Source of the DNA: Candidatus Spongiisociaceae bacterium
GTDB lineage: Bacteria; Actinomycetota; Acidimicrobiia; Spongiisociales; Spongiisociaceae
DNA length: 64,000 bases
Direction of reading: 5' to 3'
Assembly (NCBI GenBank): GCA_965243835.1
Contig: OZ251578.1
Span: forward strand, 277,573 to 341,572
The position numbers were made by a program, and so were the translations under genes. Numbering within the stretch: position 1 is the stretch's first letter; each line of letters opens with the position of its first letter. This document shows positions 2,797 through 51,800 of this stretch, piece by piece. A model generated the notes under the pieces. The model was not told the DNA's origin. It saw only the letters and a list, made by a program, of their open reading frames with translations, and made no database searches.

Positions 2797-3450
2797 TCAG
2801 GTGCTTCCCTGCAGGATGATGTTGCGTATGTCGTCCGCCGCCAGATCGAACCCTTCGGCCTCGGCGCGGAACTTGAGCAGGGCGGTGCGCCGCAACTCCC
2901 CGGTGTCGGGGGCCCGCAGTCCCTGCAGGACTTCGCTGGCCGCGGCCGCGATCTGCAACGACGACTGCTGGGCGAATTGGTGGGCTTCGGTCAAGCCGGC
3001 CTGGGAGGCGGGGGGCGTGCGCAGGTCCACCGTTTGGCTGAACACCAAGGCGCGCGCTTCCAACTCTTCCATGGCGGTTTCGGTTTCCGAATAGGTGACA
3101 CCGCTTTCGTCCCGGTTGTCCCAGTCGGCGTTGGCCCGGTCCATATCCACCACCAGCTCGGCCAGGGTCTGCTGATCCTGGGTCAGGTTGTCCAGGTAGG
3201 TCTGCAGTTCGGCGGACAGCAGGGTGGTGGTGGTCGTGGACGGCTCTTCCACGGCCGGGTCTCCGGGGGCGGCGGTGGTAGCGGAGGGGGCGATGGTAGT
3301 GGTGGTGGAAGTAGTGGTGGAGGGGGGTTCGTCTTCGGGAATCTCGTCGGGGGAGAGACGTTGCACGAAAAACCAGGTGAAAGCGACCATGCCCAACACC
3401 ACAATCGGCAACACCCACCGTCCGGGTTTGGGATCAGGATTTCGGTACAT
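2797..3450 (-). CDS. Hypothetical membrane-anchored protein with Thr/Ser-rich linker
   Basis: N-terminal TM helix (WVLPIVVLGMVAFTWFF), PSTTTSTTTTIAPSATT low-complexity linker; no recognisable domain. Confidence 0.45.
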   Translation of the reverse strand: MYRNPDPKPGRWVLPIVVLGMVAFTWFFVQRLSPDEIPEDEPPSTTTSTTTTIAPSATTAAPGDPAVEEPSTTTTTLLSAELQTYLDNLTQDQQTLAELVVDMDRANADWDNRDESGVTYSETETAMEELEARALVFSQTVDLRTPPASQAGLTEAHQFAQQSSLQIAAAASEVLQGLRAPDTGELRRTALLKFRAEAEGFDLAADDIRNIILQGST

Positions 3451-10874: not shown

Positions 10875-11506
10875 GCGGGTTGCGGGACGGCTGGTCCCGT
10901 CTGCGGTCGGGGGAGGGGATGCCCGGTTTCCTGCAAGCCGGTTCGGAGTTCCGCCGCTGGGCGGGGCTGTCCCTGCGTTCGCTGCGCACCGTGTGGGGGG
11001 TGGGGTTGGCGGTGGCGGGGACGGCGGTGACCGGAGCCGGGCTGGGCTTGTTGCTGCACGGGACCGGGGTGCGGACGTTGGACATGGCCCGGCCGGATTC
11101 CGAGGCCCTGTCGTCTGGGTTGGTGACCGCCCTCATCGGGACTTTTTTGCTGGGGCTGGCGGTGGAAAGCGGCCTGCGGGTCTTGGAGGACGCGCCCGGT
11201 GTCAAGGCCTGGGAGTCGGCGTTGGCGGCGGCGGCGGGCCTGGTGGCCTTCGTTCCGGTGACGTGGCTGTTGGCCGGGTTCGCCGACCGCCTGGTCGTCT
11301 TCTCCGACCTGTTCGGTTTAATCCCGGAGCAGCTTTTCCTGGTGGGGCGGAGCGGCGTTTCGGCGGCTCTGGCGGCGGGGGTTCCGCTGATGTGGCTGTT
11401 GCGGCATTTCGCCTCCCCCCGCTGGCGGGAGCACGCCCCGGCCCTGCTGTACGCGGCCTGGCTGACCGGTTTCATCTGGCTGTACCGCCCCCTCCTCCCC
11501 GCCTGA
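10871..11506 (+). CDS. Hypothetical polytopic membrane protein
   Basis: GTG start overlapping the glcF stop; several hydrophobic helices; its 3' end is the template for a degenerate copy at 11888-12015. Confidence 0.5.
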   Translation: MSGLRDGWSRLRSGEGMPGFLQAGSEFRRWAGLSLRSLRTVWGVGLAVAGTAVTGAGLGLLLHGTGVRTLDMARPDSEALSSGLVTALIGTFLLGLAVESGLRVLEDAPGVKAWESALAAAAGLVAFVPVTWLLAGFADRLVVFSDLFGLIPEQLFLVGRSGVSAALAAGVPLMWLLRHFASPRWREHAPALLYAAWLTGFIWLYRPLLPA

Positions 11507-11530
11507 CCGCCCATCCCGCGTAACGCCCCG

Positions 11531-11600
11531 CATAGAAACGACCCGCCCCCGGAGGGACGGGCCGTTTTAACCATAGGCATGCCTATGGCGCAGTTCTGAC
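11531..11600. repeat. R1 bipartite palindromic repeat (hairpin aaacgacccgcccc..gggacgggccgttt plus perfect palindrome ccataggcatgcctatgg)
   Basis: Three copies in this intergenic region (R1-R3). Confidence 0.8.
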
Positions 11601-11727
11601 GAGAAAGTATAGACGCCCGAAGGAACCCGTCAAGCCCTTCCCGCGTCGTCGGCAGTCGCGGGTGGAGCGGCAACGTCTGTTGCGGGTTACGACAGCGATG
11701 GGACAAGTGCCGGGGGCAGGCCCCCGT

Positions 11728-11796
11728 CATAGAAATGACCCGCCCCCGAAGGGACGGGTCATTCTGCCATGAGCGTACCCATGGCTGTGATGCGAC
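11728..11796. repeat. R2 copy of the same bipartite palindromic repeat (more diverged)
   Basis: catagaaatgacccgcccccgaagggacgggtcatt...gccatgagcgtacccatggc. Confidence 0.7.
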
Positions 11797-11887
11797 ATAC
11801 AAGTATACATGACCGCGACAACCCCGTCAATTCGGTTTCTCCGCTATCGACGTAACGGTGGGCGACGCCTGCTGCCGCAGGACGGGG

Positions 11888-12015
11888 GATTCCGTTGAGG
11901 CGGTTGTTGCGGCGCTTCGCCTCTCCCCGCTGGCAGGAGCGCGCCCCTGCGTCGCCGCCTGCGGGACGGCTGTCCGGTTTCATCCGGGCGTACCGCCCCC
12001 TCCTCCCCGCCTGGG
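11888..12015 (+). pseudogene. Degenerate (~80% identical) duplicate of the last ~125 nt of the upstream membrane-protein gene (11380-11506)
   Basis: gttgcggcgcttcgcctctccccgctggcaggagc...ccggtttcatccgggcgtaccgccccctcctccccgcctgg against the original gttgcggcatttcgcctccccccgctggcgggagc...ccggtttcatctggctgtaccgccccctcctccccgcctga. Confidence 0.7.
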
Positions 12016-12089
12016 CCTCCGGTCCCGCATACGCCCGGCCCGGGTTTATCATGACGGCTACGGCATAACCGCTGGGGTCCGGTTCCCGA

Positions 12090-12159
12090 CATAGAAACGA
12101 CCCGCCCCCGGAGGGACGGGCCGTTTTAACCATAGGTATACCTATGGCGCAGTTCTGAC
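12090..12159. repeat. R3 copy of the bipartite palindromic repeat; its tail supplies the RBS of the NYN gene
   Basis: Same hairpin; the second palindrome ccataggtatacctatgg carries compensatory changes relative to R1. Confidence 0.8.
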
Positions 12160-12171
12160 AAAGGAGTATAG

Positions 12172-12834
12172 GTGTCTGAAAACCATCTGTCAAATCGGTC
12201 ACGCGTATTCGGCTATGTGGATGGCTACAACGTCTACTACGGATTGCTGAGCAAAGGCTGGAAAAGGTTCTACTGGCTTGATTTACGGGCTTTGTTCACC
12301 ACTCTCTTGCTTCCGGGCGATGAGCTGGTTGCTGTCAAGTATTTCACCGCTAGAGGGCGAGGCCCCCAAGACTCCAACCGTCGCCAAGCTATTTACTTAG
12401 GGGCTCTCTCCTCGTCAGGCGGAGTGGAGATAATCAGCGGCCGGTTCGCCAGGCGGACGCGTAAGCACTGTTCCTACTGCGGGAATTATCTTCAGTGCCT
12501 GAAGTGCGAACGCAGCGACAGGCGGAACCAGGAAAAAACGACCGATGTCGCTATCGGCGTTAATTTGGTTGCGGATGCGCACGAAGGGCTGTACGACAAG
12601 GCCTTTCTGATGACCGGCGACAGCGACCTCATACCGGCGGTCAAGCATGTGGTGGACAGGTTGGGTAAAAGGGTGGTCGTTACCCCGCCGCCCGGACGAA
12701 GATCTGATCACCTGAATGAGGTGGGCTCCGGGGTGGCGTACTTTTCCGTCGGGGCCTTTAGGCGATCCCAGTTGCCGGAAGTGGTGATGGGGAGCGGGGG
12801 GCGGGAGTATCGGCGACCCGCCGCGTGGAGATGA
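12172..12834 (+). CDS. NYN/LabA-like (PIN-fold) nuclease domain protein with central zinc ribbon
   Basis: GTG start with aaggag RBS; FGYVDGYNVYY and TDVAIGVNLVADAHEGLYDKAFLMTGDSDLIPAV (NYN); CSYCGNYLQCLKCE. Confidence 0.7.
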   Translation: MSENHLSNRSRVFGYVDGYNVYYGLLSKGWKRFYWLDLRALFTTLLLPGDELVAVKYFTARGRGPQDSNRRQAIYLGALSSSGGVEIISGRFARRTRKHCSYCGNYLQCLKCERSDRRNQEKTTDVAIGVNLVADAHEGLYDKAFLMTGDSDLIPAVKHVVDRLGKRVVVTPPPGRRSDHLNEVGSGVAYFSVGAFRRSQLPEVVMGSGGREYRRPAAWR

Positions 12835-14694: not shown

Positions 14695-16686
14695 ATGCCG
14701 CTACGTGAAACCCTGGACAACATCCGCAACGGACCCACCCCCGGCAACGAGGAGTCGGCCAAGATGTGGATTCTGGTTCCCATCCTTCAGGATTTGGGTT
14801 GGCAACCGTTTGATATCCAGTGGGAATATCAGGTGGGCCGGAGCAAAGGAAGGGTGGATGCCGCCCTAACTGGGCCAAAGGGAGTTACGGCTTTCATCGA
14901 AGCCAAAGCCCCCGGCAACCGTTTGGACGATCACGTCGAGCAGGTTTTGGGATACGCGTTCCAGGAGGGGGCGAACATCTGCGCGCTGACCACCGGCCTG
15001 GAGTGGTGGTTGTACCTGCCCGCCGAGACGGACTACAACTTCGACGAACGCCGTTTCGCCGAGTTGCGTCTCAAGGACGACCCGGTGGAACAACTGGCCA
15101 CCGATTTCGTCGCCTTCCTAGGCAAGGAAACATTATTAGACGGAGAAGCCGAGAAAAAGGCCAAGCAAGTCCTAAAAGCCCGCCGCGAGGCCGAACACTT
15201 GGACAAGGAGGTCCCCGGCATCTGGCGCGAAATGCTGGTAACCCCCGACGAAGAGCTGATAGAGCTGGTAAGCAAACGCGTCTACGAAAAAACTAACCTC
15301 CGCCCCACCTCTCAACAGGTAAACTTCGCCCTCACAGGCCGCCTTTCCCCACCCTCTACCAGCCCACGACGACCCGTTGACCCCCCAAATAAAGAGATTA
15401 AACCACCAACCAGCACGCCAGGACCTACGGCGATTCGATTGTGGGGAGAGACACAATCAGTTAAAAGCAATGCGGATATTCTTAGATGCGTTATTGATGG
15501 TCTTCTCGAACGAGGTGAGACTGAGTTTGAGAATATACCTGGAATAGGCGGTATCACTCGTACTCCTTATCAGCCCAAAATGAAGGATTATTATCAAGTG
15601 GGCTCCACCGGCATTTACTTTGTTACAGGAAAGGGCAGAGCCGTTATTGAAGATACTTATCGGCTATTAGAACACTTTGATTATACCCGTTCAGATTTAG
15701 AAATTATATATGGCAAGATGCCTCCACCAAATGGTATGAAATTGTGGGGAAAATACTATCAAGTTAAATCTTGGATTAGCATTTTGGATATTGTAGTAGA
15801 TTCTCTCTATGAACGCCATGGACACAATTTTGAACCTGGACTCGAGCTTCGTAATCAAAGAGGACCTTATATTTCTCGGGAATCTTCAGATATAGAAAGG
15901 CCCCGTCAGGTAGGCGCAAAGGATCTCTATTTGGATCGTAACATCGGACATTTGGAGGTTAAAGAACGCGCCAAAGAATTGCTTGAGGCTTTTGGATACA
16001 AAGCTTCTGATCTAGAAATTATAGAGAAAGAAAAAGCAAGCGGCTTTGAGTTCTTGGGTAAATACCATGAGGTGAAGCACAATTATCAAGTGCTGGTTGG
16101 TGTCGCCGAAGTTCTCTTCGAACAGCATGGTAACGATTTTGAAGGGGCCCTTGATTTGAAAGGTATATTACGTAAACCTGAGAGTGTCTCTCCTAAAAAT
16201 TATCGCGAAGTGGGCTCTTCGGGTATTTTTGTGAGATTGCCGGACGCTAAATTTTTTTCTAGGTCTTATCAATTGGTAGAATACTTTGGGTATAAAGCCA
16301 GTGCTTTAAGAATTGATACTACAACAGGTTCAGTAAATTATTCTACATTAGATATATCCAGAAGCAAGAGATATGTAAAGCCGGTTCGTATTAGACTGTT
16401 TGACGAGTACCATAAAGTCAAACTATGGAAAGAGATAATAATGCGGCTTGCGGATGTGCTTTATAGACGGCATCGCTCTGATTTTGATCGTGTGTTGGGT
16501 TTAGGGACTGAAAAGAACCCTTATGCTTCTCGCCTTTCTGTAGTGTTGGAGTCAGCGTATGAAGTTGGTAATTCGGGTATTTATATCGAAACAGGGCTAA
16601 GTTCCGATAATGTCAAAAGGCGCTCCAAGAAATTGTTAGAAGAATTCGGATACAAACCCGAAGAGTTAGAAATACTGTTTGATTAG
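14695..16686 (+). CDS. HsdR_N-like (PD-(D/E)XK) nuclease domain protein with Pro/Thr linker and four tandem copies of a novel ~85-aa module
   Basis: N-terminus EYQVGRSKGRVDAALTG...AFIEAKAPG...ALTTGLEWWLY matches the Type I R-subunit N-terminal fold. Four repeats carry (W/F)G.Y..VK......LY.RH..dFe then Y.VGsSGIY....LLE.FGY...L.I. The repeat region is about 40% GC. Confidence 0.75.
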   Translation: MPLRETLDNIRNGPTPGNEESAKMWILVPILQDLGWQPFDIQWEYQVGRSKGRVDAALTGPKGVTAFIEAKAPGNRLDDHVEQVLGYAFQEGANICALTTGLEWWLYLPAETDYNFDERRFAELRLKDDPVEQLATDFVAFLGKETLLDGEAEKKAKQVLKARREAEHLDKEVPGIWREMLVTPDEELIELVSKRVYEKTNLRPTSQQVNFALTGRLSPPSTSPRRPVDPPNKEIKPPTSTPGPTAIRLWGETQSVKSNADILRCVIDGLLERGETEFENIPGIGGITRTPYQPKMKDYYQVGSTGIYFVTGKGRAVIEDTYRLLEHFDYTRSDLEIIYGKMPPPNGMKLWGKYYQVKSWISILDIVVDSLYERHGHNFEPGLELRNQRGPYISRESSDIERPRQVGAKDLYLDRNIGHLEVKERAKELLEAFGYKASDLEIIEKEKASGFEFLGKYHEVKHNYQVLVGVAEVLFEQHGNDFEGALDLKGILRKPESVSPKNYREVGSSGIFVRLPDAKFFSRSYQLVEYFGYKASALRIDTTTGSVNYSTLDISRSKRYVKPVRIRLFDEYHKVKLWKEIIMRLADVLYRRHRSDFDRVLGLGTEKNPYASRLSVVLESAYEVGNSGIYIETGLSSDNVKRRSKKLLEEFGYKPEELEILFD

Positions 16687-16701: not shown

Positions 16702-18960
16702 ATGTCTGGCTTGATTGACGTTAAATTGATAGACGGTACGGCGCGTACTATACGTGAGCTGTTTACCGGGCGTAAGTACGGGATAGAGTACTACCAGCGT
16801 GAATACACTTGGACGGAGTCCAATGTGGTGGAGTTGCTTGATGACCTAACCACTCGTTTTCTGGATGAATATACGGAAGGCGATGAGCGTCATAAGGTCG
16901 CCTCTTACCGTTATTATTTCCTGGGACCAATAGTTACCAACCTATCCGAAGAAGGGATACGTTACTTGGTGGATGGACAGCAACGCCTTACTACCCTAAC
17001 CTTATTGTTGATTTGTCTAGATCATATGTCTAAAGATGAGGATGGGGTGGAAAGTTTGGAACAGTTAGTTTATTCGCAAAAGTTCGGTTCACGCACATTT
17101 AACATAAACGTAGACGAGCGTGAAGAAGTGATGGCTACTATTCTGGATGGTTCTTCCTCTTTTGATACGGAGGACAAGTCGATATCGGTTCGCAATATAT
17201 GGGAGAGATATCAGAATGTAGTGGATCATTTTCCTGAAGAACTCAAAGGAGAATCATTAGTGTTTTTTATTGATTGGTTACTGGAACGGGTGGTACTAGT
17301 CGAGATAGGCACCACCGACCAGGATATGGCATTAGAGGTTTTTGAAACAATGAACGACCGGGGTTTGCGTTTATCCAATACCGATATGTTGAAAGCTTTT
17401 CTACTGAGCAAACTTGACGACCGTCAGCGAATTGAAAAGACGAACGAGCTATGGCGTAATCGTATAACGGAGCTGGCAGATTTAGATAAGAATGCTGACT
17501 CGGATTTTCTGAAGCATTGGTTACGCGGGCATTACGCCGATTCAATCCGGGAACAGAAACGGGGTGCTACTCCACGCGACTTCGATATAATTGGTACCGC
17601 GTATCATAAATGGGTGCGCGATAATTGTGAAAGAATAGGGTTGTATAATTCTAGTGATTTCATGGGTTTTGCCTATCAAGACTTTGACCGAATGAGCAAT
17701 AGATACAAGCAACTTCTGCAGGCTAGCTGGGAAATGACCCCTGGTTTGGAGCACTTATTTTACAACGCCACAGTGGGAATAACACTCCAATACTTGCCTA
17801 TTATAGCGGCTTTAACTCCCGATGATGATGAAGAAATTTTTCGATCAAAAACTCGTCTTATATCTGCTTATATTGACTTGTGGATGGCGAGGCTTATGGT
17901 TAACTATCGTAACTATGGATATTCAACTATTTTACATAGAATGTTTCGATTGAGTAAAGAACTCCGTAATCGAGAATTGCATGAAGTTCAAGAAATATTG
18001 GCGAATTGGGTAGCTGGCTTACCAGATTCCTTTGAGGGCGTTATGCATTTTCGGCTTCACGGTCAGAATCGTTGGCGCATTAAATACTTGTTGTCACGGA
18101 TGACAGCTTGGGTTGAGGCGAATTGCGACGGTAGCGGTCAGTTTGTTGATTATATGGATTCACAACGCCAAAGCCCTTATGAGGTGGAACATATTTGGGC
18201 TAATAAATACGCTCGACATATAGATGAGTTTGACAGCCCGGATGACTTCGATCGTAGTAGAAATCGTTTTGGTGCTTTAGTGCTTTTACCGAAGAGTTTC
18301 AACGCCAGCTATGGTGATAAGCCTTATTCAGAAAAGGTAGAACATTATTACGGTCAGAATTTATTGGCACGGTCGCTTCACCCTAGAACCTACGAGAATA
18401 ATCCTTCTTTTAAAGGATTTATAGCGAAGACAGGGTTGCCTTTTAAACCTTATCCCGATTCTTTTACAAAGGATAATATAGAAGAGAGACAGGATTTGTA
18501 TCGTCAGATTTGTGAGCAGATTTGGGATCCGGACACCTTGGGTTTGGGCGGAGGCGCATCACAATCAATCCCTAAAAGTACTAACCCTAAAATGACTAAA
18601 AGAAATATGTCTACATATGACATTTTGGGATTGGAGTTGTTTGGTGAATATTATCAGGCGGAACATAAATACCCAAAATACCAAGTACTACAAATTGTTG
18701 CTGATGAAGTCTACAAGAGGCACCGTGATGATTTTCATCGGGCGTTGGAGATCGGCGGCTTTGTAAGTGAGCCTTCTCCTCAAAACCCTGATGAATATTA
18801 TAAGATAGGGTCATCGGGAGTATATGTTCTTGCCGCCTCGGGGCTTTTTGATAAGTCGTATAAACTATTGGACCTTTTTGGTTACCAACGGGGGGCTCTT
18901 AGAATTGACACTTCGGAAGGGCCCATCAACCCTTCAACTTATGAGGTGGATGATGAGTAG
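16702..18960 (+). CDS. DUF262/DUF1524 (GmrSD/BrxU-like) Type IV restriction-type protein with one C-terminal copy of the shared module
   Basis: DUF262 hallmark YLVDGQQRLTTLTLLL; DUF1524 His-Me motif YEVEHIWANKYARH; C-terminal LGLELFGEYYQAEHKYPKYQVLQIVADEVYKRHRDDF...YYKIGSSGVYVL...LLDLFGYQRGALRI; RBS gaaaggaagg 7 nt upstream. Confidence 0.8.
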   Translation: MSGLIDVKLIDGTARTIRELFTGRKYGIEYYQREYTWTESNVVELLDDLTTRFLDEYTEGDERHKVASYRYYFLGPIVTNLSEEGIRYLVDGQQRLTTLTLLLICLDHMSKDEDGVESLEQLVYSQKFGSRTFNINVDEREEVMATILDGSSSFDTEDKSISVRNIWERYQNVVDHFPEELKGESLVFFIDWLLERVVLVEIGTTDQDMALEVFETMNDRGLRLSNTDMLKAFLLSKLDDRQRIEKTNELWRNRITELADLDKNADSDFLKHWLRGHYADSIREQKRGATPRDFDIIGTAYHKWVRDNCERIGLYNSSDFMGFAYQDFDRMSNRYKQLLQASWEMTPGLEHLFYNATVGITLQYLPIIAALTPDDDEEIFRSKTRLISAYIDLWMARLMVNYRNYGYSTILHRMFRLSKELRNRELHEVQEILANWVAGLPDSFEGVMHFRLHGQNRWRIKYLLSRMTAWVEANCDGSGQFVDYMDSQRQSPYEVEHIWANKYARHIDEFDSPDDFDRSRNRFGALVLLPKSFNASYGDKPYSEKVEHYYGQNLLARSLHPRTYENNPSFKGFIAKTGLPFKPYPDSFTKDNIEERQDLYRQICEQIWDPDTLGLGGGASQSIPKSTNPKMTKRNMSTYDILGLELFGEYYQAEHKYPKYQVLQIVADEVYKRHRDDFHRALEIGGFVSEPSPQNPDEYYKIGSSGVYVLAASGLFDKSYKLLDLFGYQRGALRIDTSEGPINPSTYEVDDE

Positions 18961-20626
18961 TTTTTTGGTTAAGGGGCCGGCTCAACTGAGCGGGCACTTT
19001 CAGCCGGTGGGGAACAAGAATGCGGCCCTGCCGATTATCGCCGCCTGTTTGCTGGCGGAGGGGCCGGTTACTTTGCGCAACGTGCCGATGATCGGGGATG
19101 TGGAGTCGCTACTGGCCATCCTGGAGGAAATGGGGGCCGCGGTGGACCGCCGGGGAGGGGGAACCATCCGCATCGACGCCCGCAATGTGGACTCGCCTGC
19201 GGTTTCGGCGGAGCTGGCGGGGGCGATTCGGGCCTCCATCCTGCTCGCCGGACCACTCTTGGCCCGGTTCGGGCAGGTGACAATTCCGCCTCCCGGCGGG
19301 GACGTCATCGGGCGTCGTCGCATCGACACGCATGTGCGGGGGCTGACCGCCATCGGCGCCCGCTACAAATACGAGGGCGGGCATTCTTTCACCGCCGACT
19401 CCCTCACCGGCGCCGACGTGTTCTTGGACGAGCCGTCGGTCACCGCCACCGAAAACCTGATAATGGCCGCTTCCAAAGCATGGGGCACCACCGTCATCCA
19501 GAACGCCGCCTGCGAACCGCACATCCAGGACCTGTGTCATTTCCTGAACTCGCTGGGGGCGCGCATCACCGGCATCGGCAGCAACATTCTCACCATCGAG
19601 GGGGCGGATTCGCTGAGCGGCGGCGAGCACGACATCGTTCCCGACCATATTGAGATCGGAAGCATGATCGTGTTGGCCGCCGTAACCGGTTCCGAAATAA
19701 CCATCGGCGGGATACGCTCCGGTGAGATCAGGCCCATCAACCTGGCTTGGCAACGGCTGGGCATCGATTACCACCTGCAAGCGGACGGCTCCGCCCTGGT
19801 CTGCGCCCATCAGAACCTCACCGTGTCCCCCGACTTGGGCGGCGCGGTGCCCAAAATAGAGGACGGGCCGTGGCCGTCCTTCCCGGCCGACCTGACCAGC
19901 ATCGCGGTGGTGGCCGCCACCCAGGCCACCGGTTCCATAATGATCCACGAGAAAATGTTCGAGTCGCGAATGTTCTTCGTGGACCGGCTGATCGGGATGG
20001 GGGCCCGCATCGTGCTGTGCGACCCGCACCGGGTGATGGTGCTCGGCCCCACCCCCTTGCATGCCAGCCCGGTGGCCAGCCCCGACATCCGGGCCGGGAT
20101 GGCCCTGCTCATCGCCGCCCTGGCCGCCGAAGGCCAAAGTCGCATCGATAACGTGGAACAGATCGAACGGGGCTACGAAGCCCTCGACAGCCGACTCACC
20201 GCCCTAGGAGCCCAAATCGAACGCCTCGACGGGTTGGAAAGCACCAGATCGGCGGTAGCCAAAAAACCGAAAACCAGGAAACGTTCCCAAACCCCTCCTC
20301 CTGCGGGTCTGCAAATACTAGGCCGCGAATTGCAACCGACGTCTTGGGCGGATGCAGTCCGGGAGACTGTTCGAGAGATGCTCGCCCGCCACCCCGATAT
20401 TTACCAGGAGACTATGTTGGGCCTCCCACGGTGGATTGATAGTAGTGGCGATAGCCGTCTCGCCTATCCGCTAGAATCCAGGCCGCCACACAGATACGGC
20501 ACAGTTATCGGCGGAGTAAGAGTATTTGATAATTACAACGCAATAGGAGCGAAAGAGGCTGTTGACATTGTTTTAAACGGATTTGGCTACCAAGCCGACG
20601 CCGTTCGCGAATGGACTTTGACATAG
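18950..20626 (+). CDS. murA: UDP-N-acetylglucosamine 1-carboxyvinyltransferase (MurA) homolog with ~130-aa C-terminal extension carrying the shared module
   Basis: [40 protein letters not shown] and a full two-lobe MurA/EPSPS core. Asp replaces the catalytic Cys ([15 protein letters not shown]). Tail ...[30 protein letters not shown]...[12 protein letters not shown]...[17 protein letters not shown]. The ATG overlaps the upstream gene by 11 nt. Confidence 0.85.
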
Positions 20627-20638
20627 GGGCCCCGCTGG

Positions 20639-20700
20639 GGTACAGTTTTTGTGAATGCTCCCCGCCGTCTGGGGCCAACCTGGACTGGCGGGGCTTATTT
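20639..20700. repeat. X1 repeat: hairpin gctccccgcc...ggcggggc with T-rich tail, directly after the murA stop
   Basis: A second copy (X2) lies at 20897-20960; could act as the murA terminator. Confidence 0.55.
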
Positions 20701-20721
20701 ATGGATAGGTGATATCCGATG

Positions 20722-20815
20722 CCTGCTGTAGGGAAACGATCACCGACCGGTTGACGCAGAACATTCGAATGCAACGGTTCAATCGCCAGCCGCACCCCCG
20801 CCGCCGTTGCCTCCT
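20722..20815 (-). pseudogene. Degenerate (~85% identical) duplicate of an internal segment (22575-22670) of the sugar-phosphate isomerase gene
   Basis: cctgctgtagggaaacgatcaccgaccggttgacgcagaacat... against cttgccgcagggaaacgatcaccgaccggtcggcgcagaacat...; the minus-strand translation retains RLAIEPLH. Confidence 0.7.
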
Positions 20816-20896
20816 CCTCCGCCTAAGTGCTCACCCTGTGGCGGAGCCGCGCGAAGCCGTTCGTCAATAGACGATTTGACAGGGGGTCCCGGTGGT

Positions 20897-20960
20897 GTAT
20901 AGTTTCTGTTAATGCTCCCCGCTGTCCGGGTCCTTGGGGCCTGAACTGGCGGGGATTTAG
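20897..20960. repeat. X2 repeat (second copy of the X1 hairpin element)
   Basis: gtatagtttctgttaatgctccccgctgtccgggtccttggggcctgaactggcggggattt. Confidence 0.55.
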
Positions 20961-21137
20961 TTATAGGGGCTTTGCGTTGAGGGGGAGTGAGGGTGAGGGT
21001 AAGTTCCGGTTGGGTTTGCCGGTGTAGAGGAGCACTTGGGTTCTGTCGTTACGGAATCCGAAGGCTCCGCCACCCCCTCCACCCCCACTATCTCCACCTC
21101 CCCCGAGTGTTCCACCCAGACGACGCGGCGTGTTGGT

Positions 21138-21950
21138 TTACAGGTTGGGAGGGACGGTAGTCATTTTATTCAAGGTTTCCTTGTCTAAATCGATAATGTT
21201 ATCCGCTAGTTTAGAAAGCTCACGGGACACACTATTCCGGTTGGGAGTAGCAACCGATACTCGAGTTCCCATATTTTGGGCGACACGTACAGCCTCCGTA
21301 AAGTCCCCATCTCCCGCAATGAGCACCGCCTTATCAATCTTTCCTTGTTGCGCCAACATCACCAAATCCAACACTAGCAAGGTATCCACTCCTTTCTGTT
21401 TGTGTTCTGGCTCGAAAGCCCCATTTTTTTCTAACTCGTTTATGAATTGAATTGGATCCTGCCCTAAATCGGACACCATTTTATTGAGGGTAGCTCTTAG
21501 ATCGCGTTCGTTTTTAGGTCTTATTTCAACTATACGTCCCAGTCGGAGTTCAAAGTCAGGGATCTGCACTAATTCAGACAGGATTTTTCGTTGAAATTTT
21601 GCTGATTTGTGGTAAGCGGGATAAGCACCATCATACCAATAGGTTTTATGAAGGTGTCCTTCGATGCCTCTGCACCAATCTGCAATCTCTTTGGTATTCA
21701 TTTGTATTCGCGTTTTGGGTATTGAATTACCGGAGAAATTTTTGCCTTCCGCTCGTAAATATCCAACATCTATAAAAACGGCATAACGAGAAGATGGTTC
21801 GTTTTGTTCGGCTGTCGTTGTGTTTTCTAGGAGTTTGAAAAAATACGTCTTGGTTTCGCCGATTTTTGCTCGTCTTTCGAGCTTGAGTGTTTCTTCTGGG
21901 TTGTCGGCGATGTCATAGTTTCCTGTATTTATTTTATTGTTTTCTTTCAT
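21138..21950 (-). CDS. NYN/LabA-like (PIN-fold) nuclease domain protein
   Basis: RYAVFIDVGYL...GVDTLLVLDLVMLAQQGKIDKAVLIAGDGDFTEAVRVAQNMGTRVSVA. Start chosen at MKENNK because of the gggagaag RBS; the ORF is open up to 22148. AT-rich. Confidence 0.65.
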   Translation of the reverse strand: MKENNKINTGNYDIADNPEETLKLERRAKIGETKTYFFKLLENTTTAEQNEPSSRYAVFIDVGYLRAEGKNFSGNSIPKTRIQMNTKEIADWCRGIEGHLHKTYWYDGAYPAYHKSAKFQRKILSELVQIPDFELRLGRIVEIRPKNERDLRATLNKMVSDLGQDPIQFINELEKNGAFEPEHKQKGVDTLLVLDLVMLAQQGKIDKAVLIAGDGDFTEAVRVAQNMGTRVSVATPNRNSVSRELSKLADNIIDLDKETLNKMTTVPPNL

Positions 21951-22231
21951 TTTTCTTTCTTCTCCCGTATCGGGTGGATTCCGCTTGTGTGCGGGTATCC
22001 CTTGTAATTTACCTAAAGGGGGGTAAGTTTCGGCTTTGTAAAATATTTCTAGGTGTTTGACAAAAAATCCCATAGGAAGCCCCAACGATGTCCCATAGGG
22101 GACCGTTGCTACCCCCTCTAGGGAAATCCAGTTTAGGGCAACGCCCAATATTTGTCAAACGGGCATCTACCTGGGCTTTTGCCAGGGGCAGGAGCGGGGT
22201 TCGTTGGACGGCGGCCCGTTCAGGGGGACGG

Positions 22232-23086
22232 TTATAGGTGGGGGGCTACCAGGGAGTTGTAGCGTTCTGTCATTTTTTTCAGGACCTGGGGGCCGGGTTG
22301 GTTCCAGATTTCCCGGTTGAAGATTTCCACTTCCACCGGGCCGGTGTAGCCGGCGGCGGCTACCGCTTGGGTGAAGCGGGCGAAATCGATCACGCCGTCG
22401 CCCATCATTCCCCGGCCTAGCAGCACATCGGGCAACGGGTCCAGCCAGTCGCATACCTGGTAGGAAAAAATCCTCCGTCCCGCCCGGTCGATCTGCTCCC
22501 ATGCCTGCGGGTCCCACCACATATTGAAAGTATCCACCGTTACCCCCACCGTCTCCTCGGGAAAGCCTTCGGCTATGTCCAGCGCTTGCCGCAGGGAAAC
22601 GATCACCGACCGGTCGGCGCAGAACATGGGGTGCAATGGTTCGATCGCCAGCCGCACCCCCGCCTCCCTCGCCGTTGGGACCACCGCCGCGATCCCCTCC
22701 TCCACCTGCCGTCGGGAAGCCTCCAAACCCGCCCCCTTGACCCCTCCGCACACCAGCACTATCACTTCGCACCCCACGGCCGCCGACTCCTCCACCACTC
22801 GCCGGTTCTCCTCCACCGCCCGCCGCCGACCGTCGGCGGAGTCGGCGGTGAAAAACCCTCCCCGGCAGTAGGTGGACACCCGCAGGCCGGCCTCCCGCAC
22901 CATGCGCCCCGCCGCCTCCGCACCGCCCGCGGCCCGCACCTGCTCCCGCCACAAGCCGATCCATCCGATGCTGGCCCGCACGCACCCGGCCGCCGCCTCC
23001 TCTACGCTCCAGTATTCGGTGGTTTTCTGGTTGAGGCTGAGCCGGCCCCCCCGGCCATCCCGCCCCGACCGTTCCGGCCCGGGCAT
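22232..23086 (-). CDS. Sugar phosphate isomerase/epimerase (xylose isomerase-like TIM barrel)
   Basis: AGVRLAIEPLH...TVGVTVDTFNMWWD; the start overlaps the upstream stop (ATGA). Confidence 0.75.
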   Translation of the reverse strand: MPGPERSGRDGRGGRLSLNQKTTEYWSVEEAAAGCVRASIGWIGLWREQVRAAGGAEAAGRMVREAGLRVSTYCRGGFFTADSADGRRRAVEENRRVVEESAAVGCEVIVLVCGGVKGAGLEASRRQVEEGIAAVVPTAREAGVRLAIEPLHPMFCADRSVIVSLRQALDIAEGFPEETVGVTVDTFNMWWDPQAWEQIDRAGRRIFSYQVCDWLDPLPDVLLGRGMMGDGVIDFARFTQAVAAAGYTGPVEVEIFNREIWNQPGPQVLKKMTERYNSLVAPHL

Positions 23087-41917: not shown

Positions 41918-42001
41918 GCCGGGATGCCCGAGCGGCCAAAGGGAGCAGACTGTAAATCTGCCGGCTAAGCCTACGGAGGTTCGAATCCTTCTCCCGGCAC
42001 C
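41918..42001 (+). tRNA. tRNA-Tyr (GTA)
   Basis: Acceptor gccggga/tcccggc, anticodon loop actgtaaatc, long variable arm, TPsiC ggttcgaatcc. Confidence 0.8.
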
Positions 42002-42049
42002 GACCAGAACCGGACCGAACCCGGAACTGGTATCCTGACAAGACCCATC

Positions 42050-42123
42050 GCCCCCTTAGCTCAGTTGGCCAGAGCGCCTCCATGGTAAGGAGGAGGTCTC
42101 CGGTTCGAATCCGGAAGGGGGCT
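42050..42123 (+). tRNA. tRNA-Thr (GGT)
   Basis: Acceptor gccccct/agggggc, anticodon loop atggtaa. Confidence 0.8.
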
Positions 42124-42144
42124 CGACGGCCTTGGGCCGCAGGC

Positions 42145-42218
42145 GGCGGCGTAGCTCAGTCGGTAAGAGCGCTCGACTCATAATCGAGAGGTCGGCAGTT
42201 CAAGTCTGCCCGCCGCTA
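42145..42218 (+). tRNA. tRNA-Met (CAT), elongator type (could be tRNA-Ile2/lysidine)
   Basis: D arm gctcagtcggtaagagc, anticodon loop ctcataa, T arm ggcagttcaagtctgcc; anticodon stem lacks the initiator 3xGC signature. Confidence 0.7.
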
Positions 42219-42297
42219 CAATCAACCCGAATCAACCCGACCAACCCGTAAAACACCCGGTCAACCGGACCGCAAAGACGCAAAGGAGGAGCAAACG

Positions 42298-45801: not shown

Positions 45802-45877
45802 AGGGGCGTAGCTCGAAATTGGTTAGAGCGCCGGTCTCCAAAACCGGAGGTTGGGGGTTCGAGTCCCTCCGCCCCTG
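45802..45877 (+). tRNA. tRNA-Trp (CCA)
   Basis: Acceptor aggggcg/cgcccct, anticodon loop ctccaaa. Confidence 0.85.
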
Positions 45878-45907
45878 CCCCGCTAAAACACCCGACAGGA
45901 AGAAAAA

Positions 45908-51713: not shown

Positions 51714-51800
51714 GCGCTCATCCAGAGCGGTGGAGGGACAGGCCCTGCGAAACCGCGGCAACCGTATGACCGGTGCCAATGCCTGAACGATGAGATAAGC
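51714..51800 (+). promoter_or_regulatory. SAM-I (S-box) riboswitch aptamer
   Basis: ctcatccagagcggtggagggacaggccctgcgaaaccgcggcaaccgtatgaccggtgccaatgcctgaacgatgag matches the S-box consensus (P1 ctcatc/gatgag, GGTGGAGGGAC, GGCAACC, GGTGCCAAT). Confidence 0.7.

What the first reader, a model, noticed from the sequence alone, without database searches (positions are those of the whole stretch)
20639..22232. Second NYN-domain gene with the same signature: hairpin repeats flanking a degenerate fragment of the adjacent isomerase gene
Between the murA stop and the second NYN gene (21138-21950, minus strand), two copies of a hairpin repeat (X1 20639-20700, X2 20897-20960; stem ccccgcc/ggcgggg) bracket an ~85%-identical copy (20722-20815) of an internal segment of the intact sugar-phosphate isomerase gene at 22575-22670. 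Both NYN genes in the window are therefore associated with repeat elements plus a pseudo-copy of about 100 bp of a nearby host gene. This recurring structure suggests the NYN genes are cargo or boundary markers of a duplicative element that delimits the 14.7-22.1 kb island.
Basis: seen in the sequence. Interest (0 to 1): 0.5.

Follow-up and report, generated by a model that had tools for sequence, protein, structure and literature searches.

The report
NYN-linked RNA hairpin, duplicated by recombination
The repeated hairpin next to this nuclease gene is a copy of a widespread small RNA element, absent from the RNA-family library, that accompanies NYN-type RNase genes in many bacteria; its second copy and the stray isomerase fragment look like leftovers of local recombination, not the ends of a mobile island.

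Summary
X1 and X2 are about 83% identical direct repeats. A 91-nt piece (20721-20811) matches the isomerase gene at 84.6%.

The mobile-island interpretation does not hold. Close relatives vary piece by piece, and argS, murA and NYN2 keep their order in all of them. No recombinase gene is present. Both X copies lie on one side of NYN2.

Each X is a promoter-like site, a 6-nt leader and a 15-bp bulged hairpin with a U-rich tail. A covariance model built on it found the same element next to NYN genes:
- 22 of 31 genome loci found by the hairpin pattern alone carry a NYN gene just downstream.
- 69 of 79 metagenome loci chosen by NYN protein alone carry X, or 74 of 75 with upstream sequence if weaker hits count.
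- 14 of 15 base pairs show compensatory changes.
- No Rfam 15 family matches it.

It usually lies 3-31 nt upstream of the NYN gene. In a minority it abuts the stop codon convergently, as in this window's relatives.

The murA-NYN2 spacer is a pile of remnants: X1, isomerase piece, dead murA end, X2, tail of a phd-like gene, half an X. The most likely cause is recombination between divergent alleles in a hypervariable neighbourhood of defence-type genes. The function of X is inferred, not shown.

The parts
18941..20626 (+). murA with a C-terminal extension of about 146 aa. Its stop codon overlaps the -35 hexamer of X1 (TTGACATAG).
   Evidence: Pfam EPSP_synthase matches residues 49-454 of the 600-aa ORF. 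Relatives carry a 550-562 aa murA. The start at 18941 is inferred from those lengths.
20596..20715 (+). X1 unit. It holds the functional last ~30 nt of murA, -35 at 20618-20623, -10 at 20641-20646, a likely transcription start A at 20654, the hairpin at 20660-20693 and a U-rich tail.
   Evidence: Repeat and alignment. Promoter scan. Model R1 hit at 20646-20707, 67.4 bits. Fold -28.5 kcal/mol, z = -4.2. Promoter and start register across 102 instances.
20721..20811 (+). Degenerate fragment of the isomerase gene (gene nt 353-442). It is non-coding and lies in the same orientation as the gene.
   Evidence: 84.6% identity over 91 nt to 22584-22673, E = 3e-22. It is 98% identical in L006/L007 and absent in L005. 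L001's remnant shares the breakpoint at gene nt 442.
20812..20851 (.). Junction sequence of unknown origin, about 40 nt.
   Evidence: It has no significant match to the isomerase gene, murA, L001 or the L011 leader. All scores fall within the shuffle range.
20852..20975 (+). X2 unit. It holds a dead copy of the murA 3' end (TGG changed to TAG), -35 at 20876-20881, -10 at 20898-20903, a likely start A at 20911, the hairpin at 20917-20954 and a tail.
   Evidence: Model R1 hit at 20903-20968, 59 bits. In L005 the same X type adjoins the live murA end, with TGG intact.
20976..21108 (+). Remnant of the last ~45 nt and the 3' flank of a phd-like antitoxin-type gene. The gene is intact only in relative L011.
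   Evidence: Local alignment to L011 and L005. The L011 ORF gives a weak TIGR01552 phd_fam match, E = 0.0017, below the curated cut-off. The segment is not significantly structured, z = -0.9 and -1.7.
21109..21137 (+). Degenerate 3' half of an older X copy, abutting the NYN2 stop codon.
   Evidence: It aligns with the 3' half of the single X that abuts the NYN2 stop in L001, L003 and L008. A weak R1 hit lies at the matching place in L011.
21138..21950 (-). NYN2, a 270-aa NYN-domain protein encoded by low-GC DNA (about 41% GC).
   Evidence: Pfam NYN E = 5.8e-14. Weak PADLOC 'NYN' match, E = 3.4e-8. Homologues at 73-86% identity sit beside murA in all relatives.
22232..23080 (-). Intact sugar-phosphate isomerase/epimerase-like TIM-barrel gene. 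It contains the source segment 22584-22673.
   Evidence: Pfam AP_endonuc_2 E = 4e-38. Weak NCBIfam epimerase/isomerase matches. The gene is 94.7% identical in L006 and 95.3% in L005.
11377..12180 (+). The parallel structure at NYN1. In order: membrane-gene 3' end (11377-11505), R1 (11526-11621), partial R (11691-11763), dead copy of the gene end (11885-12013), and R2 (12085-12180), which contains the NYN1 ribosome-binding site and start codon.
   Evidence: Comparison with L008 (has NYN1) and L001, L003 and L009 (lack it) is.
12172..12834 (+). NYN1, a 220-aa NYN-domain protein of the PADLOC HEC-09 family.
   Evidence: PADLOC HEC-09 E = 1.2e-58 over the full length. ORF listing. HEC-09 is described as an NYN candidate that gave no phage defence in tests (bioRxiv 10.1101/2024.01.29.577857).

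Best explanation
X is a small transcription unit for a structured RNA. It consists of a sigma-70-like promoter, a start at a nearly invariant A, a 6-nt leader (A-M-U-S-C-U), a 15-bp hairpin with one bulged U, and a U-rich tail. The transcript would be about 50 nt if it ends at that tail.

The element belongs to a widespread family that Rfam 15 does not hold. The family lies next to NYN-domain RNase genes, mostly in Actinomycetota; the few named ArgRS relatives of this window are Acidimicrobiia MAGs at about 65% identity. The usual layout is promoter, X, 3-31 nt, NYN start codon. A minority layout, shared by this window's relatives, has X running convergently into the NYN stop codon.

Shown: family membership, the secondary structure, the fixed promoter distance and the link to NYN genes.

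Inferred: the X RNA is recognised by the NYN protein, either as a regulator of its expression (a terminator-type leader) or as an inhibitor or substrate of the nuclease.

The second X copy and the isomerase fragment are not functional boundaries. The murA-NYN2 spacer is a stack of rearrangement remnants: X1, isomerase remnant, dead murA end, X2, tail of a phd-like gene, half an X.

The most likely origin is recombination between two divergent alleles of this hypervariable locus. One allele resembled L011 (murA-X1-isomerase remnant-phd). The other resembled L005 (murA-X2-phd remnant). One crossover would have been homologous, inside murA. The other would have been illegitimate, about 30 nt before the resident murA stop. 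That would duplicate the murA end plus X and trap the isomerase remnant between the copies.
For: X as an RNA motif:
- A pattern-only scan of 185,579 species genomes gave 31 loci. In 22 of them a NYN gene starts 18-181 nt downstream on the same strand. One more locus has a 28-aa NYN remnant.
- Of 79 metagenome loci chosen by NYN protein alone and searched whole, 69 have X at E < 1e-7. Sixty-two are upstream on the same strand, with the end of the model hit 3-31 nt (median 13) from the start codon. Three are convergent and abut the stop codon. Four are divergent.
- Of the 11 remaining loci of the 80, five have no or almost no upstream sequence and five have weaker upstream hits of 25-32 bits. 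Only L063 has none.
- On those 69 instances 95% of cells are paired, 14 of 15 pairs show changes on both sides, and 0 of 500 shuffles reach the observed covariation.
- Across 102 distinct instances the -10 pattern TAnnnT sits at -18 to -13, and A at -6 occurs in 101 of 102.
- Rfam has no match in the window or in 16 canonical loci.
- The + strand is the homologous orientation in the window: 67 and 59 bits, against 16 and 12 bits on the - strand.
- X is better conserved than its flanks: 96-97% against 88-89% in the L001 group, and 94-99% against 86-93% in the window group.

The spacer as a recombination scar:
- L005 has a single X of the X2 type, fused to a live murA end. L006 and L007 have the window's structure. 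L011 has X1, a 49-nt isomerase remnant and an intact phd-like ORF. The L001 group has one X abutting the NYN2 stop.
- Window X1 resembles L011's X1. Window X2 resembles L005's X.
- The sequence after X2 is homologous to the phd 3' end and its flank.
- The phd-like gene sits on the other side of NYN2 in the L001 group, next to an in-place isomerase remnant that also ends at gene nt 442.
- Divergence is mosaic. The murA catalytic part and the isomerase gene are 94-100% identical between the window and L005/L006/L011. The murA extension is 55-85%, X1 about 85%, and the NYN2 5' half 81-87%.
Against: - No transcript data exist. The promoter, the start site and termination at the hairpin are predictions.
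- The NYN2 subfamily is not generally linked to X. Four distant homologues (37-39% identity) have none within 3 kb. X beside NYN2 could therefore be a relic of a lost canonical NYN gene rather than a working partner.
- Eight of the 31 pattern-only loci and two viral contigs carry X with no NYN gene detected.
- The order of DNA events cannot be fixed. The 40 nt at 20812-20851 match nothing. X1 and X2 are themselves mosaic relative to the L001-type X: the hairpin of X1 and the promoter spacer of X2 are the parts that resemble it. A tandem duplication in place, followed by deletions, fits nearly as well.
- The window's murA-extension allele is not close to that of any sampled relative, so the proposed donor allele has not been observed.
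Confidence: 0.6

Rival explanations
1. The NYN genes are cargo or boundary markers of a duplicative mobile element. Its insertion copies about 100 bp of host sequence, and the element delimits the 14.7-22.1 kb island.
For: Both NYN genes have a duplicated hairpin plus a duplicated host-gene piece beside them. NYN1 and its flank duplication are present or absent together among relatives. The DNA around both genes is low in GC and carries defence-type genes.
Against: - No recombinase or transposase domain was found in the eight largest ORFs between 12.8 and 26.9 kb.
- Both X copies lie on one side of NYN2, and none lies at 14.7 kb.
- NYN1 is outside the proposed island.
- murA and argS are core genes with conserved order, and the blocks vary independently among ten relatives.
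- X is a conserved RNA gene found next to NYN genes in other phyla, with no host-gene fragments noted in the flanks read.
Confidence: 0.07
2. Tandem duplication in place, followed by deletions. A segment of about 2 kb, running from the murA end through X and NYN2 into the isomerase gene, was duplicated. Most of the first copy was then deleted. That leaves X1, the isomerase piece and the duplication junction in front of the dead murA end and X2.
For: - It predicts the observed order and orientation: X1, isomerase piece (direct), junction, dead murA end, X2.
- X1/X2 and fragment/gene are about equally diverged, at roughly 15%.
- It can also derive the L001-type and L011-type layouts by deletions between direct repeats.
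Against: - It requires 15% divergence between copies in genomes that differ by only 2-5% in flanking genes.
- L005, which is as close to the window as L006 is, would need a secondary loss.
- No junction sequence can be traced.
- X1 and X2 match two different alleles seen separately in relatives.
Confidence: 0.22
3. X1 and X2 are only intrinsic terminators of murA and NYN2, duplicated by chance. They have no RNA-specific role.
For: The hairpin is GC-rich and followed by a U-rich tail. It lies between convergent genes.
Against: - Terminators do not keep their sequence, a bulged U, a 6-nt leader and a promoter at a fixed distance across phyla.
- The element is found in 74 of 75 NYN-selected loci that have upstream sequence.
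- The pairs covary.
Confidence: 0.05
4. The fragment is functional. Read-through from the X1 promoter produces an RNA antisense to the isomerase mRNA, which would couple the NYN locus to sugar metabolism.
For: - The fragment lies 28 nt downstream of the X1 hairpin (20693 to 20721).
- On the + strand it is antisense to the gene, with perfect runs of about 21 nt.
- It is 98% conserved between the window and L006.
Against: - It is absent in L005 and cut to 49 nt in L011.
- It shares a breakpoint with a decaying in-place remnant in L001.
- Its conservation is no higher than that of the neighbouring sequence.
- No expression data exist.
Confidence: 0.04

Closest known systems
Type III toxin-antitoxin systems (ToxIN, CptIN, TenpIN)
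   Same: The canonical layout is promoter, short structured RNA, terminator-like hairpin, RNase gene. Read-through would set the ratio of RNA to protein. Neighbouring genes in some loci read are of defence or mobile type: a transposase-like ORF in L036, a helicase-like ORF in L029 and a GmrSD-like ORF in L020, judged by eye from translations and not searched.
   Different: X is a single hairpin, not tandem repeats. The protein is a NYN/PIN-like domain protein, not ToxN, CptN or TenpN. Toxicity and processing of the RNA are untested. In 10% of loci the RNA gene is convergent with or divergent from the nuclease gene.
Regnase-1/MCPIP1 autoregulation: a eukaryotic NYN/PIN-like RNase that cleaves a stem-loop in its own mRNA (from general knowledge)
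   Same: A NYN-type RNase gene whose own transcript carries a conserved stem-loop. This suggests recognition or cleavage of the stem-loop by the gene's own product.
   Different: Regnase-1 is eukaryotic and its stem-loop is in the 3' UTR. No sequence relationship of the RNA is claimed, and nothing was tested here.
Cis-regulatory leader hairpins, attenuators and 5'-terminal stabiliser stem-loops of bacterial mRNAs (Rfam 'Cis-reg' class)
   Same: A hairpin sits a few nucleotides from the predicted transcript start and 17-45 nt before the start codon, with a U-rich tail.
   Different: No Rfam 15 family matches. No alternative antiterminator structure can form, because only 6 nt precede the stem. 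The element also occurs convergent with NYN genes, divergent from them, or without one.
Homology-facilitated illegitimate recombination, and attL/attR-type duplication of a gene's 3' end (from general knowledge)
   Same: A live and a dead copy of a gene's 3' end, in direct orientation, flank inserted DNA. The copies are diverged as expected when one comes from a different allele.
   Different: No integrase gene is present. The insert is only about 137 bp. The inserted DNA is itself a remnant of local genes.
PADLOC HEC-09 (NYN candidate) and HEC-06 (GmrSD-like) defence genes
   Same: NYN1 matches HEC-09 over its full length (E = 1.2e-58). The 752-aa protein matches HEC-06, Orf5 and SspE models.
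   Different: HEC-09 gave no protection in the published test. NYN2 and the canonical X-linked NYN proteins match HEC-09 only at domain level (E about 1e-6 to 1e-7).

Membership tests
X hairpin RNA family (model R1, built here; not in Rfam) | A 15-bp hairpin with a conserved outer stem CCCCGYC/GGCGGGG and one bulged U on the 3' side. | tested here: met
   X1 scores 67.4 bits and X2 59.0 bits over all 62 model positions. Both fold at about -28 kcal/mol. Caveat: both window copies were among the 40 sequences used to build R1, so they match it partly by construction. They also match the hairpin pattern that found 31 loci in other genomes.
X hairpin RNA family (model R1, built here; not in Rfam) | Leader A-M-U-S-C-U, and a -10 hexamer 13-18 nt upstream of the stem. 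| tested here: met
   The window leaders are AATGCT in both copies. The -10 hexamers are TACAGT and TATAGT, at -19 to -14 from the stem, one position off the family register. The -35 hexamer is TTGACA in both.
X hairpin RNA family (model R1, built here; not in Rfam) | Adjacency to a NYN-domain gene, usually upstream on the same strand. | tested here: inconclusive
   X is adjacent to NYN2 but convergent with it. X2 lies about 180 nt from the stop. In the L001, L003 and L008 relatives X overlaps the stop. The same convergent geometry occurs in 3 of 69 canonical loci. NYN2 belongs to a different NYN subfamily, and four of its distant homologues have no X.
Genomic island or mobile element bounded by direct repeats | An integrase, transposase or other recombinase gene inside or beside the island. 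| tested here: not met
   The eight largest ORFs at 12.8-26.9 kb gave tRNA-synthetase, GmrSD, EPSP synthase, NYN, AP_endonuc_2 and DUF993 matches only. Smaller ORFs were not scanned.
Genomic island or mobile element bounded by direct repeats | Copies of the repeat at both ends of the island. | tested here: not met
   The only two X copies are 257 bp apart on one side of NYN2. The R copies lie at 11.5-12.2 kb. No copy lies at 14.7 kb.
Genomic island or mobile element bounded by direct repeats | Presence or absence of the whole island as one unit among relatives. | tested here: not met
   argS ... murA-NYN2 is constant. NYN1, GmrSD, the nuclease-like genes and the X1+fragment unit vary separately.
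Type III toxin-antitoxin system | An antitoxin made of tandem direct RNA repeats upstream of the toxin gene. | tested here: not met
   Canonical loci carry a single hairpin. The two copies in the window are 257 bp apart and convergent with NYN2.
Type III toxin-antitoxin system | The toxin is an endoribonuclease that is neutralised by the RNA and processes it. | not testable with these tools
   The NYN domain is a predicted RNase fold (Pfam PF01936). No activity or toxicity data exist.
Diversity-generating retroelement (template/variable repeat pair) | A reverse transcriptase gene nearby, and mismatches confined to adenines of the template copy. | tested here: not met
   No reverse transcriptase domain was found. 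The 14 differences are mixed transitions and transversions plus a 1-nt indel.
Any Rfam 15 family | A score at or above the family's gathering threshold. | tested here: not met
   In the window only tRNAs and a SAM riboswitch reached threshold. Nothing was credible at E <= 10 on 20500-21200 or on L036. There were no hits in 16 canonical loci.
NYN domain proteins (PF01936) | A Pfam NYN match above the gathering score. | tested here: met
   NYN2 scores 53.3 bits against a cut-off of 24.2. NYN1 was assigned through PADLOC HEC-09 (E = 1.2e-58) and PADLOC NYN (E = 6.3e-6). NYN1 was not scanned against Pfam.

The most novel reading that the evidence does not exclude
X is not only a leader. It is the RNA half of a widespread two-part module: a small hairpin RNA plus a NYN RNase. 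In this reading the roughly 50-nt RNA is made in excess from its own promoter and binds, inhibits or is cleaved by the NYN protein. That would make it a single-hairpin relative of type III toxin-antitoxin or abortive-infection systems. The RNA gene could then sit upstream of the nuclease gene, convergent with it or divergent from it, and could be kept, and even duplicated, beside a NYN gene of another subfamily, as in this window.
Probability: 0.3. Interest if true: 0.75.

Novelty: new member of a known kind. Interest (0 to 1): 0.5.

Why it matters
The duplicated hairpin and the gene fragment are ordinary recombination debris. They should not be read as the ends of a mobile element.

The hairpin itself is a sharply defined RNA element. 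It has strong covariation support. It is found beside nearly every member of one NYN nuclease subfamily in Actinomycetota and in several other phyla. Rfam 15 does not hold it, and the full-text searches found nothing on it.

Bacterial NYN proteins, including the defence candidate HEC-09, have no established partners or regulators. A conserved RNA that travels with them gives a direct and testable handle on how these RNases are controlled or what they recognise.

The locus also shows housekeeping genes (argS, murA) interleaved with hypervariable defence-type genes. This includes a murA with a fast-evolving extra domain.

Tried and rejected
- **Known RNA families.** Rfam at gathering and at E <= 10, and ARAGORN, found nothing at X.
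- **Template/variable repeat of a diversity-generating retroelement.** There is no reverse transcriptase gene and the mismatches are not adenine-specific.
- **Integron attC site.** By eye, the flanks of X do not fit the R''/R' core consensus. This was not tested formally.
- **A second NYN paralogue similar to NYN2 in the window.** tblastn found none. NYN1 is related only at domain level.
- **The 170 bp after X2 as a structured RNA.** The z-scores are -0.9 and -1.7, not significant. The segment is a gene remnant instead.
- **A shared operator motif, CCTATGG, upstream of both NYN genes.** Six of the window's eight sites are there. The NYN2 sites are not conserved in most relatives, so this was dropped as chance.
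- **A general link between X and the NYN2 subfamily.** Four distant homologues have no X.
- **Tracing the 40-nt junction 20812-20851.** No match rises above the shuffle range.
- **Looking up the source contig by exact NYN2 protein.** It is not on record, so the rest of the genome could not be scanned.
- **Literature searches** for the motif sequence, for NYN with RNA motifs, and for NYN with RNA antitoxins found nothing relevant.


Full report
**1. The observation**

X1 and X2 are direct repeats. A local alignment gives 20596-20702 vs 20852-20964, with 87 identical positions in 114 columns.

The repeat is longer than stated. It begins in the last ~30 nt of murA and includes a near-consensus promoter-like site: TTGACA-17-TACAGT in X1 and TTGACA-16-TATAGT in X2. 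The murA stop codon lies inside the X1 -35 region (TTGACATAG). The X2 copy of the murA end has TGG changed to TAG, so it is a dead copy.

The isomerase-like fragment is real. 20721-20811 matches 22584-22673 at 77/91 = 84.6%, with one indel and in the same orientation (E = 3e-22).

The gene at 21138-21950 is a NYN-domain protein (Pfam E = 5.8e-14).

It has the matching structure: the 3' end of the upstream membrane-protein gene (11377-11505) is copied at 11885-12013 (81%), and the hairpin-containing R element is copied at 11526-11621 and 12085-12180 (88%). R2 contains the NYN1 start codon.

**2. The supposed island**

The host DNA is 65-70% GC. There are two separate low-GC blocks, 15.4-18.9 kb and 21.1-22.1 kb, with high-GC murA between them.

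The genes in order are:
- argS
- a nuclease-like protein with four internal repeats of about 100 aa (14695-16686)
- a GmrSD-type enzyme (16702-18960)
- murA with a 146-aa C-terminal extension
- NYN2
- a TIM-barrel isomerase/epimerase
- DUF993

PADLOC assigns NYN1 to the candidate defence family HEC-09 (E = 1.2e-58) and the GmrSD protein to HEC-06, Orf5 and SspE models. HEC-09 is a NYN candidate that gave no protection when tested (bioRxiv 10.1101/2024.01.29.577857).

The region is a stretch of defence-type genes interleaved with housekeeping genes. It is not one inserted block. No recombinase domain was found in the large ORFs.

**3. Relatives**

NYN2 has close homologues (73-86% identity) on metagenome contigs. 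Ten such contigs were read.
- All carry NYN2 next to murA. The murA products called complete on these contigs are 550-562 aa, so they include the extension.
- argS lies nearby wherever the contig is long enough.
- NYN1 is present in L008 but absent in L001, L003 and L009.
- GmrSD is present in some and absent in others.
- The far side of NYN2 is the isomerase operon in L005, L006 and L011. It is an aminotransferase cluster in the L001, L003 and L008 group.

These pieces vary independently, which contradicts a single island.

The spacer alignment shows four states:
- The L001 group has one X, whose tail overlaps the NYN2 stop codon.
- L005 has one X, of the X2 type, fused to a live murA end.
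- L006 and L007 match the window: X1, fragment, dead murA end, X2.
- L011 has X1, 49 nt of the fragment, and then an intact 87-aa ORF with weak similarity to phd-family antitoxins (E = 0.0017, below the curated cut-off).

**4. What X is**

A scan of one genome per species with the hairpin pattern alone returned 31 loci. They come from Streptomyces, Kitasatospora, Microbispora, Actinoallomurus, Acidimicrobiia, Thermoleophilia, and from Chloroflexota and Planctomycetota MAGs.

In 22 of them a NYN gene of about 200 aa (MxDRVVVFLDYQNVY ... EKGIDV ... STDTDL) starts 18-181 nt downstream on the same strand. One more has a 28-aa remnant of such a gene.

I built a covariance model (R1) and then took 80 metagenome loci selected only by this NYN protein family.
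- 69 carry X at E < 1e-7.
- Of the other 11, five have no or almost no upstream sequence, five have weaker upstream hits of 25-32 bits, and only one has none.
- In 62 loci the model hit ends 3-31 nt (median 13) before the start codon.
- In three loci X is convergent and abuts the stop codon within 2 nt.
- In four loci X is divergent, 64-87 nt upstream.

On these 69 instances 95% of cells pair. Fourteen of 15 pairs have compensatory changes, for example CCTCGCC/GGCGAGG, CCCCACC/GGTGGGG and CCCCGGC/GCCGGGG. No shuffle in 500 reaches the observed covariation, and versions with the 3' partner slid by 1-3 columns fall to 32-54% paired.

Anchoring 102 distinct instances on the stem shows TAnnnT at -18 to -13, a weak TTG at -42 to -40, and A at -6 in 101 of 102. 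That A is where a transcript from this promoter should start.

X is therefore a promoter, a 6-nt leader, a bulged 15-bp hairpin and a U-rich tail.

Rfam 15 has no matching family in the window or in canonical loci. Full-text searches found nothing on it.

In the window only X1 and X2 match. The + strand is clearly the homologous orientation (67 and 59 bits, against 16 and 12).

The few named relatives of this window's ArgRS are Acidimicrobiia MAGs, at about 65% identity. That suggests the organism belongs to the group where the motif is common.

**5. How X relates to NYN2**

NYN2 is only distantly related to the canonical X-linked NYN proteins. Four distant NYN2 homologues have no X. The pairing with NYN2 is therefore specific to this lineage.

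Even so, the L001-group geometry, with the X tail overlapping the NYN stop convergently, is the same as in canonical loci L089, L095 and L102. X is also better conserved than the surrounding spacer in both groups of relatives.

I infer that X is functional here and can act without being the 5' leader of the nuclease mRNA. This is the main argument for a role in trans. It is an inference only.

**6. What the fragment and the rest of the spacer are**

Three comparisons bear on this.
- The 170 bp after X2 are homologous to the last ~45 nt and the 3' flank of L011's phd-like ORF.
- The same phd-like gene (79-81% amino-acid identity) lies on the other side of NYN2 in the L001 group.
- In L001 it is preceded by an in-place remnant of the isomerase gene (gene nt 311-442 and 676-730). 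The first piece ends at nt 442, exactly where the window's fragment ends. L011's piece covers nt 341-389.

The fragment is thus part of an old 'isomerase remnant + phd' unit. It was not freshly copied from the neighbouring gene.

Next to the NYN2 stop there is also a degenerate 3' half of an X (21109-21137). It lies in the position that the single X occupies in the L001 group.

The spacer therefore reads, in order: X1, isomerase remnant, 40 nt that match nothing, dead murA end, X2, phd remnant, half X, NYN2.

**7. How it arose**

Sliding-window identity shows a mosaic.
- The murA catalytic part and the isomerase gene are 94-100% identical between the window and L005, L006 and L011.
- The murA C-terminal extension (20208-20620) is only 55-85% identical.
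- X1 is about 85% identical.
- The NYN2 5' half is 81-87%, while its 3' half is 98-100% against L006.

This is the pattern of frequent exchange of divergent alleles.

Window X1 resembles L011's X1. Window X2 is nearly identical to L005's X.

The simplest account is recombination between an L011-like allele and an L005-like allele. One crossover would be homologous, within murA. The other would be an illegitimate join about 30 nt before the resident murA stop. This duplicates 'murA end + X' and leaves the isomerase remnant between the copies.

A tandem duplication in place followed by deletions explains the order equally well. It fits the divergence pattern and the existence of L005 less well, so I rank it second.

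The NYN1 flank has the same look. In L008 a 171-bp second copy of the gene end (92-93% identical) sits between the two R elements that the NYN1-less relatives already have.

**8. Comparison with known systems**

The canonical layout of promoter, short RNA, terminator-like hairpin and RNase gene works most like a type III toxin-antitoxin locus. It fails that family's defining features that could be tested: there are no tandem repeats and the nuclease fold is different.

It also recalls Regnase-1, a NYN-type RNase that acts on a stem-loop in its own mRNA. That comparison rests on general knowledge and was not tested.

As a sequence family X is new to Rfam. As a kind of thing, a conserved leader or small RNA beside the gene it serves, it is familiar.

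**9. Verdict**

- The mobile-island interpretation is rejected.
- The duplication and the fragment are recombination debris.
- The hairpin is a member of a widespread NYN-associated RNA motif that is not in Rfam 15 and was not found in the literature searched. Its function remains to be tested.

**Limits**
- No expression data exist.
- The rest of the source genome could not be read.
- The collection scans were capped, so the frequency of X away from NYN genes is only roughly known.

Noticed in passing
window 20186-20626 and 15385-16686: MurA carries a C-terminal extension of about 146 aa, and related contigs have it too. It shows weak similarity (pairwise E = 3e-5) to the four ~100-aa repeats of the nuclease-like protein at 14695-16686. 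This extension is hypervariable: 55-85% nucleotide identity to relatives whose murA catalytic part is 94-100% identical.
   Followed up: partly
window 21533-21880 (NYN2 5' half): The N-terminal half of NYN2 is 81-87% identical to every relative. The C-terminal half is 98-100% identical to L006. The gene appears to be mosaic or under diversifying pressure.
   Followed up: partly
window 12172-12834 and 16702-18960: NYN1 is a full-length match to the PADLOC candidate HEC-09. The 752-aa GmrSD protein matches HEC-06, Orf5 and SspE models. Defence-type genes are interleaved with argS and murA instead of forming one island.
   Followed up: partly
L011:1406-1669; L001:9007-9237; L003 and L008:9527-9757: A phd-like ORF of 76-87 aa always lies next to NYN2 in relatives. 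It is convergent with NYN2 in L011 and divergent from it in the L001 group. The window, L005 and L006 keep only its last ~45 nt, yet NYN2 is intact there. NYN2 therefore does not appear to depend on this ORF.
   Followed up: partly
window 11571-11588 and 12130-12147: An 18-bp perfect palindrome, CCATAGGYATRCCTATGG, lies inside R1 and R2, 25-40 nt before the NYN1 start. A perfect 18-nt palindrome also occurs at the matching place in relatives, including those without NYN1. It could be an operator or an RNA hairpin.
   Followed up: partly
L124:2363-2424 and L125:3494-3556, 3159-3213: Two IMG/VR viral contigs carry X with no NYN gene detected by tblastn. L125 has two X copies about 340 bp apart, both antisense to the flanking ORFs.
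   Followed up: partly
L050, L051, L071, L105: In four canonical NYN loci X lies 64-87 nt upstream of the NYN gene on the opposite strand, reading away from it. What X precedes there was not examined.
   Followed up: no
window 14695-16686: A 663-aa protein with a D...E-x-K motif and a weak HSDR_N match (E = 0.028) at its N-terminus, followed by four repeats of an uncharacterised domain. No Pfam, NCBIfam or PADLOC family matches the repeats. Relatives carry one or two shorter versions of 343-470 aa.
   Followed up: no
window 20812-20851: Forty nucleotides between the isomerase remnant and the dead murA end match nothing in the window or in the relatives.
   Followed up: yes
window 51715-51796; 41918-42219; 45802-45879: A SAM riboswitch and a tRNA cluster (Tyr, Thr, Met, and separately Trp). 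These are ordinary features unrelated to the finding.
   Followed up: no
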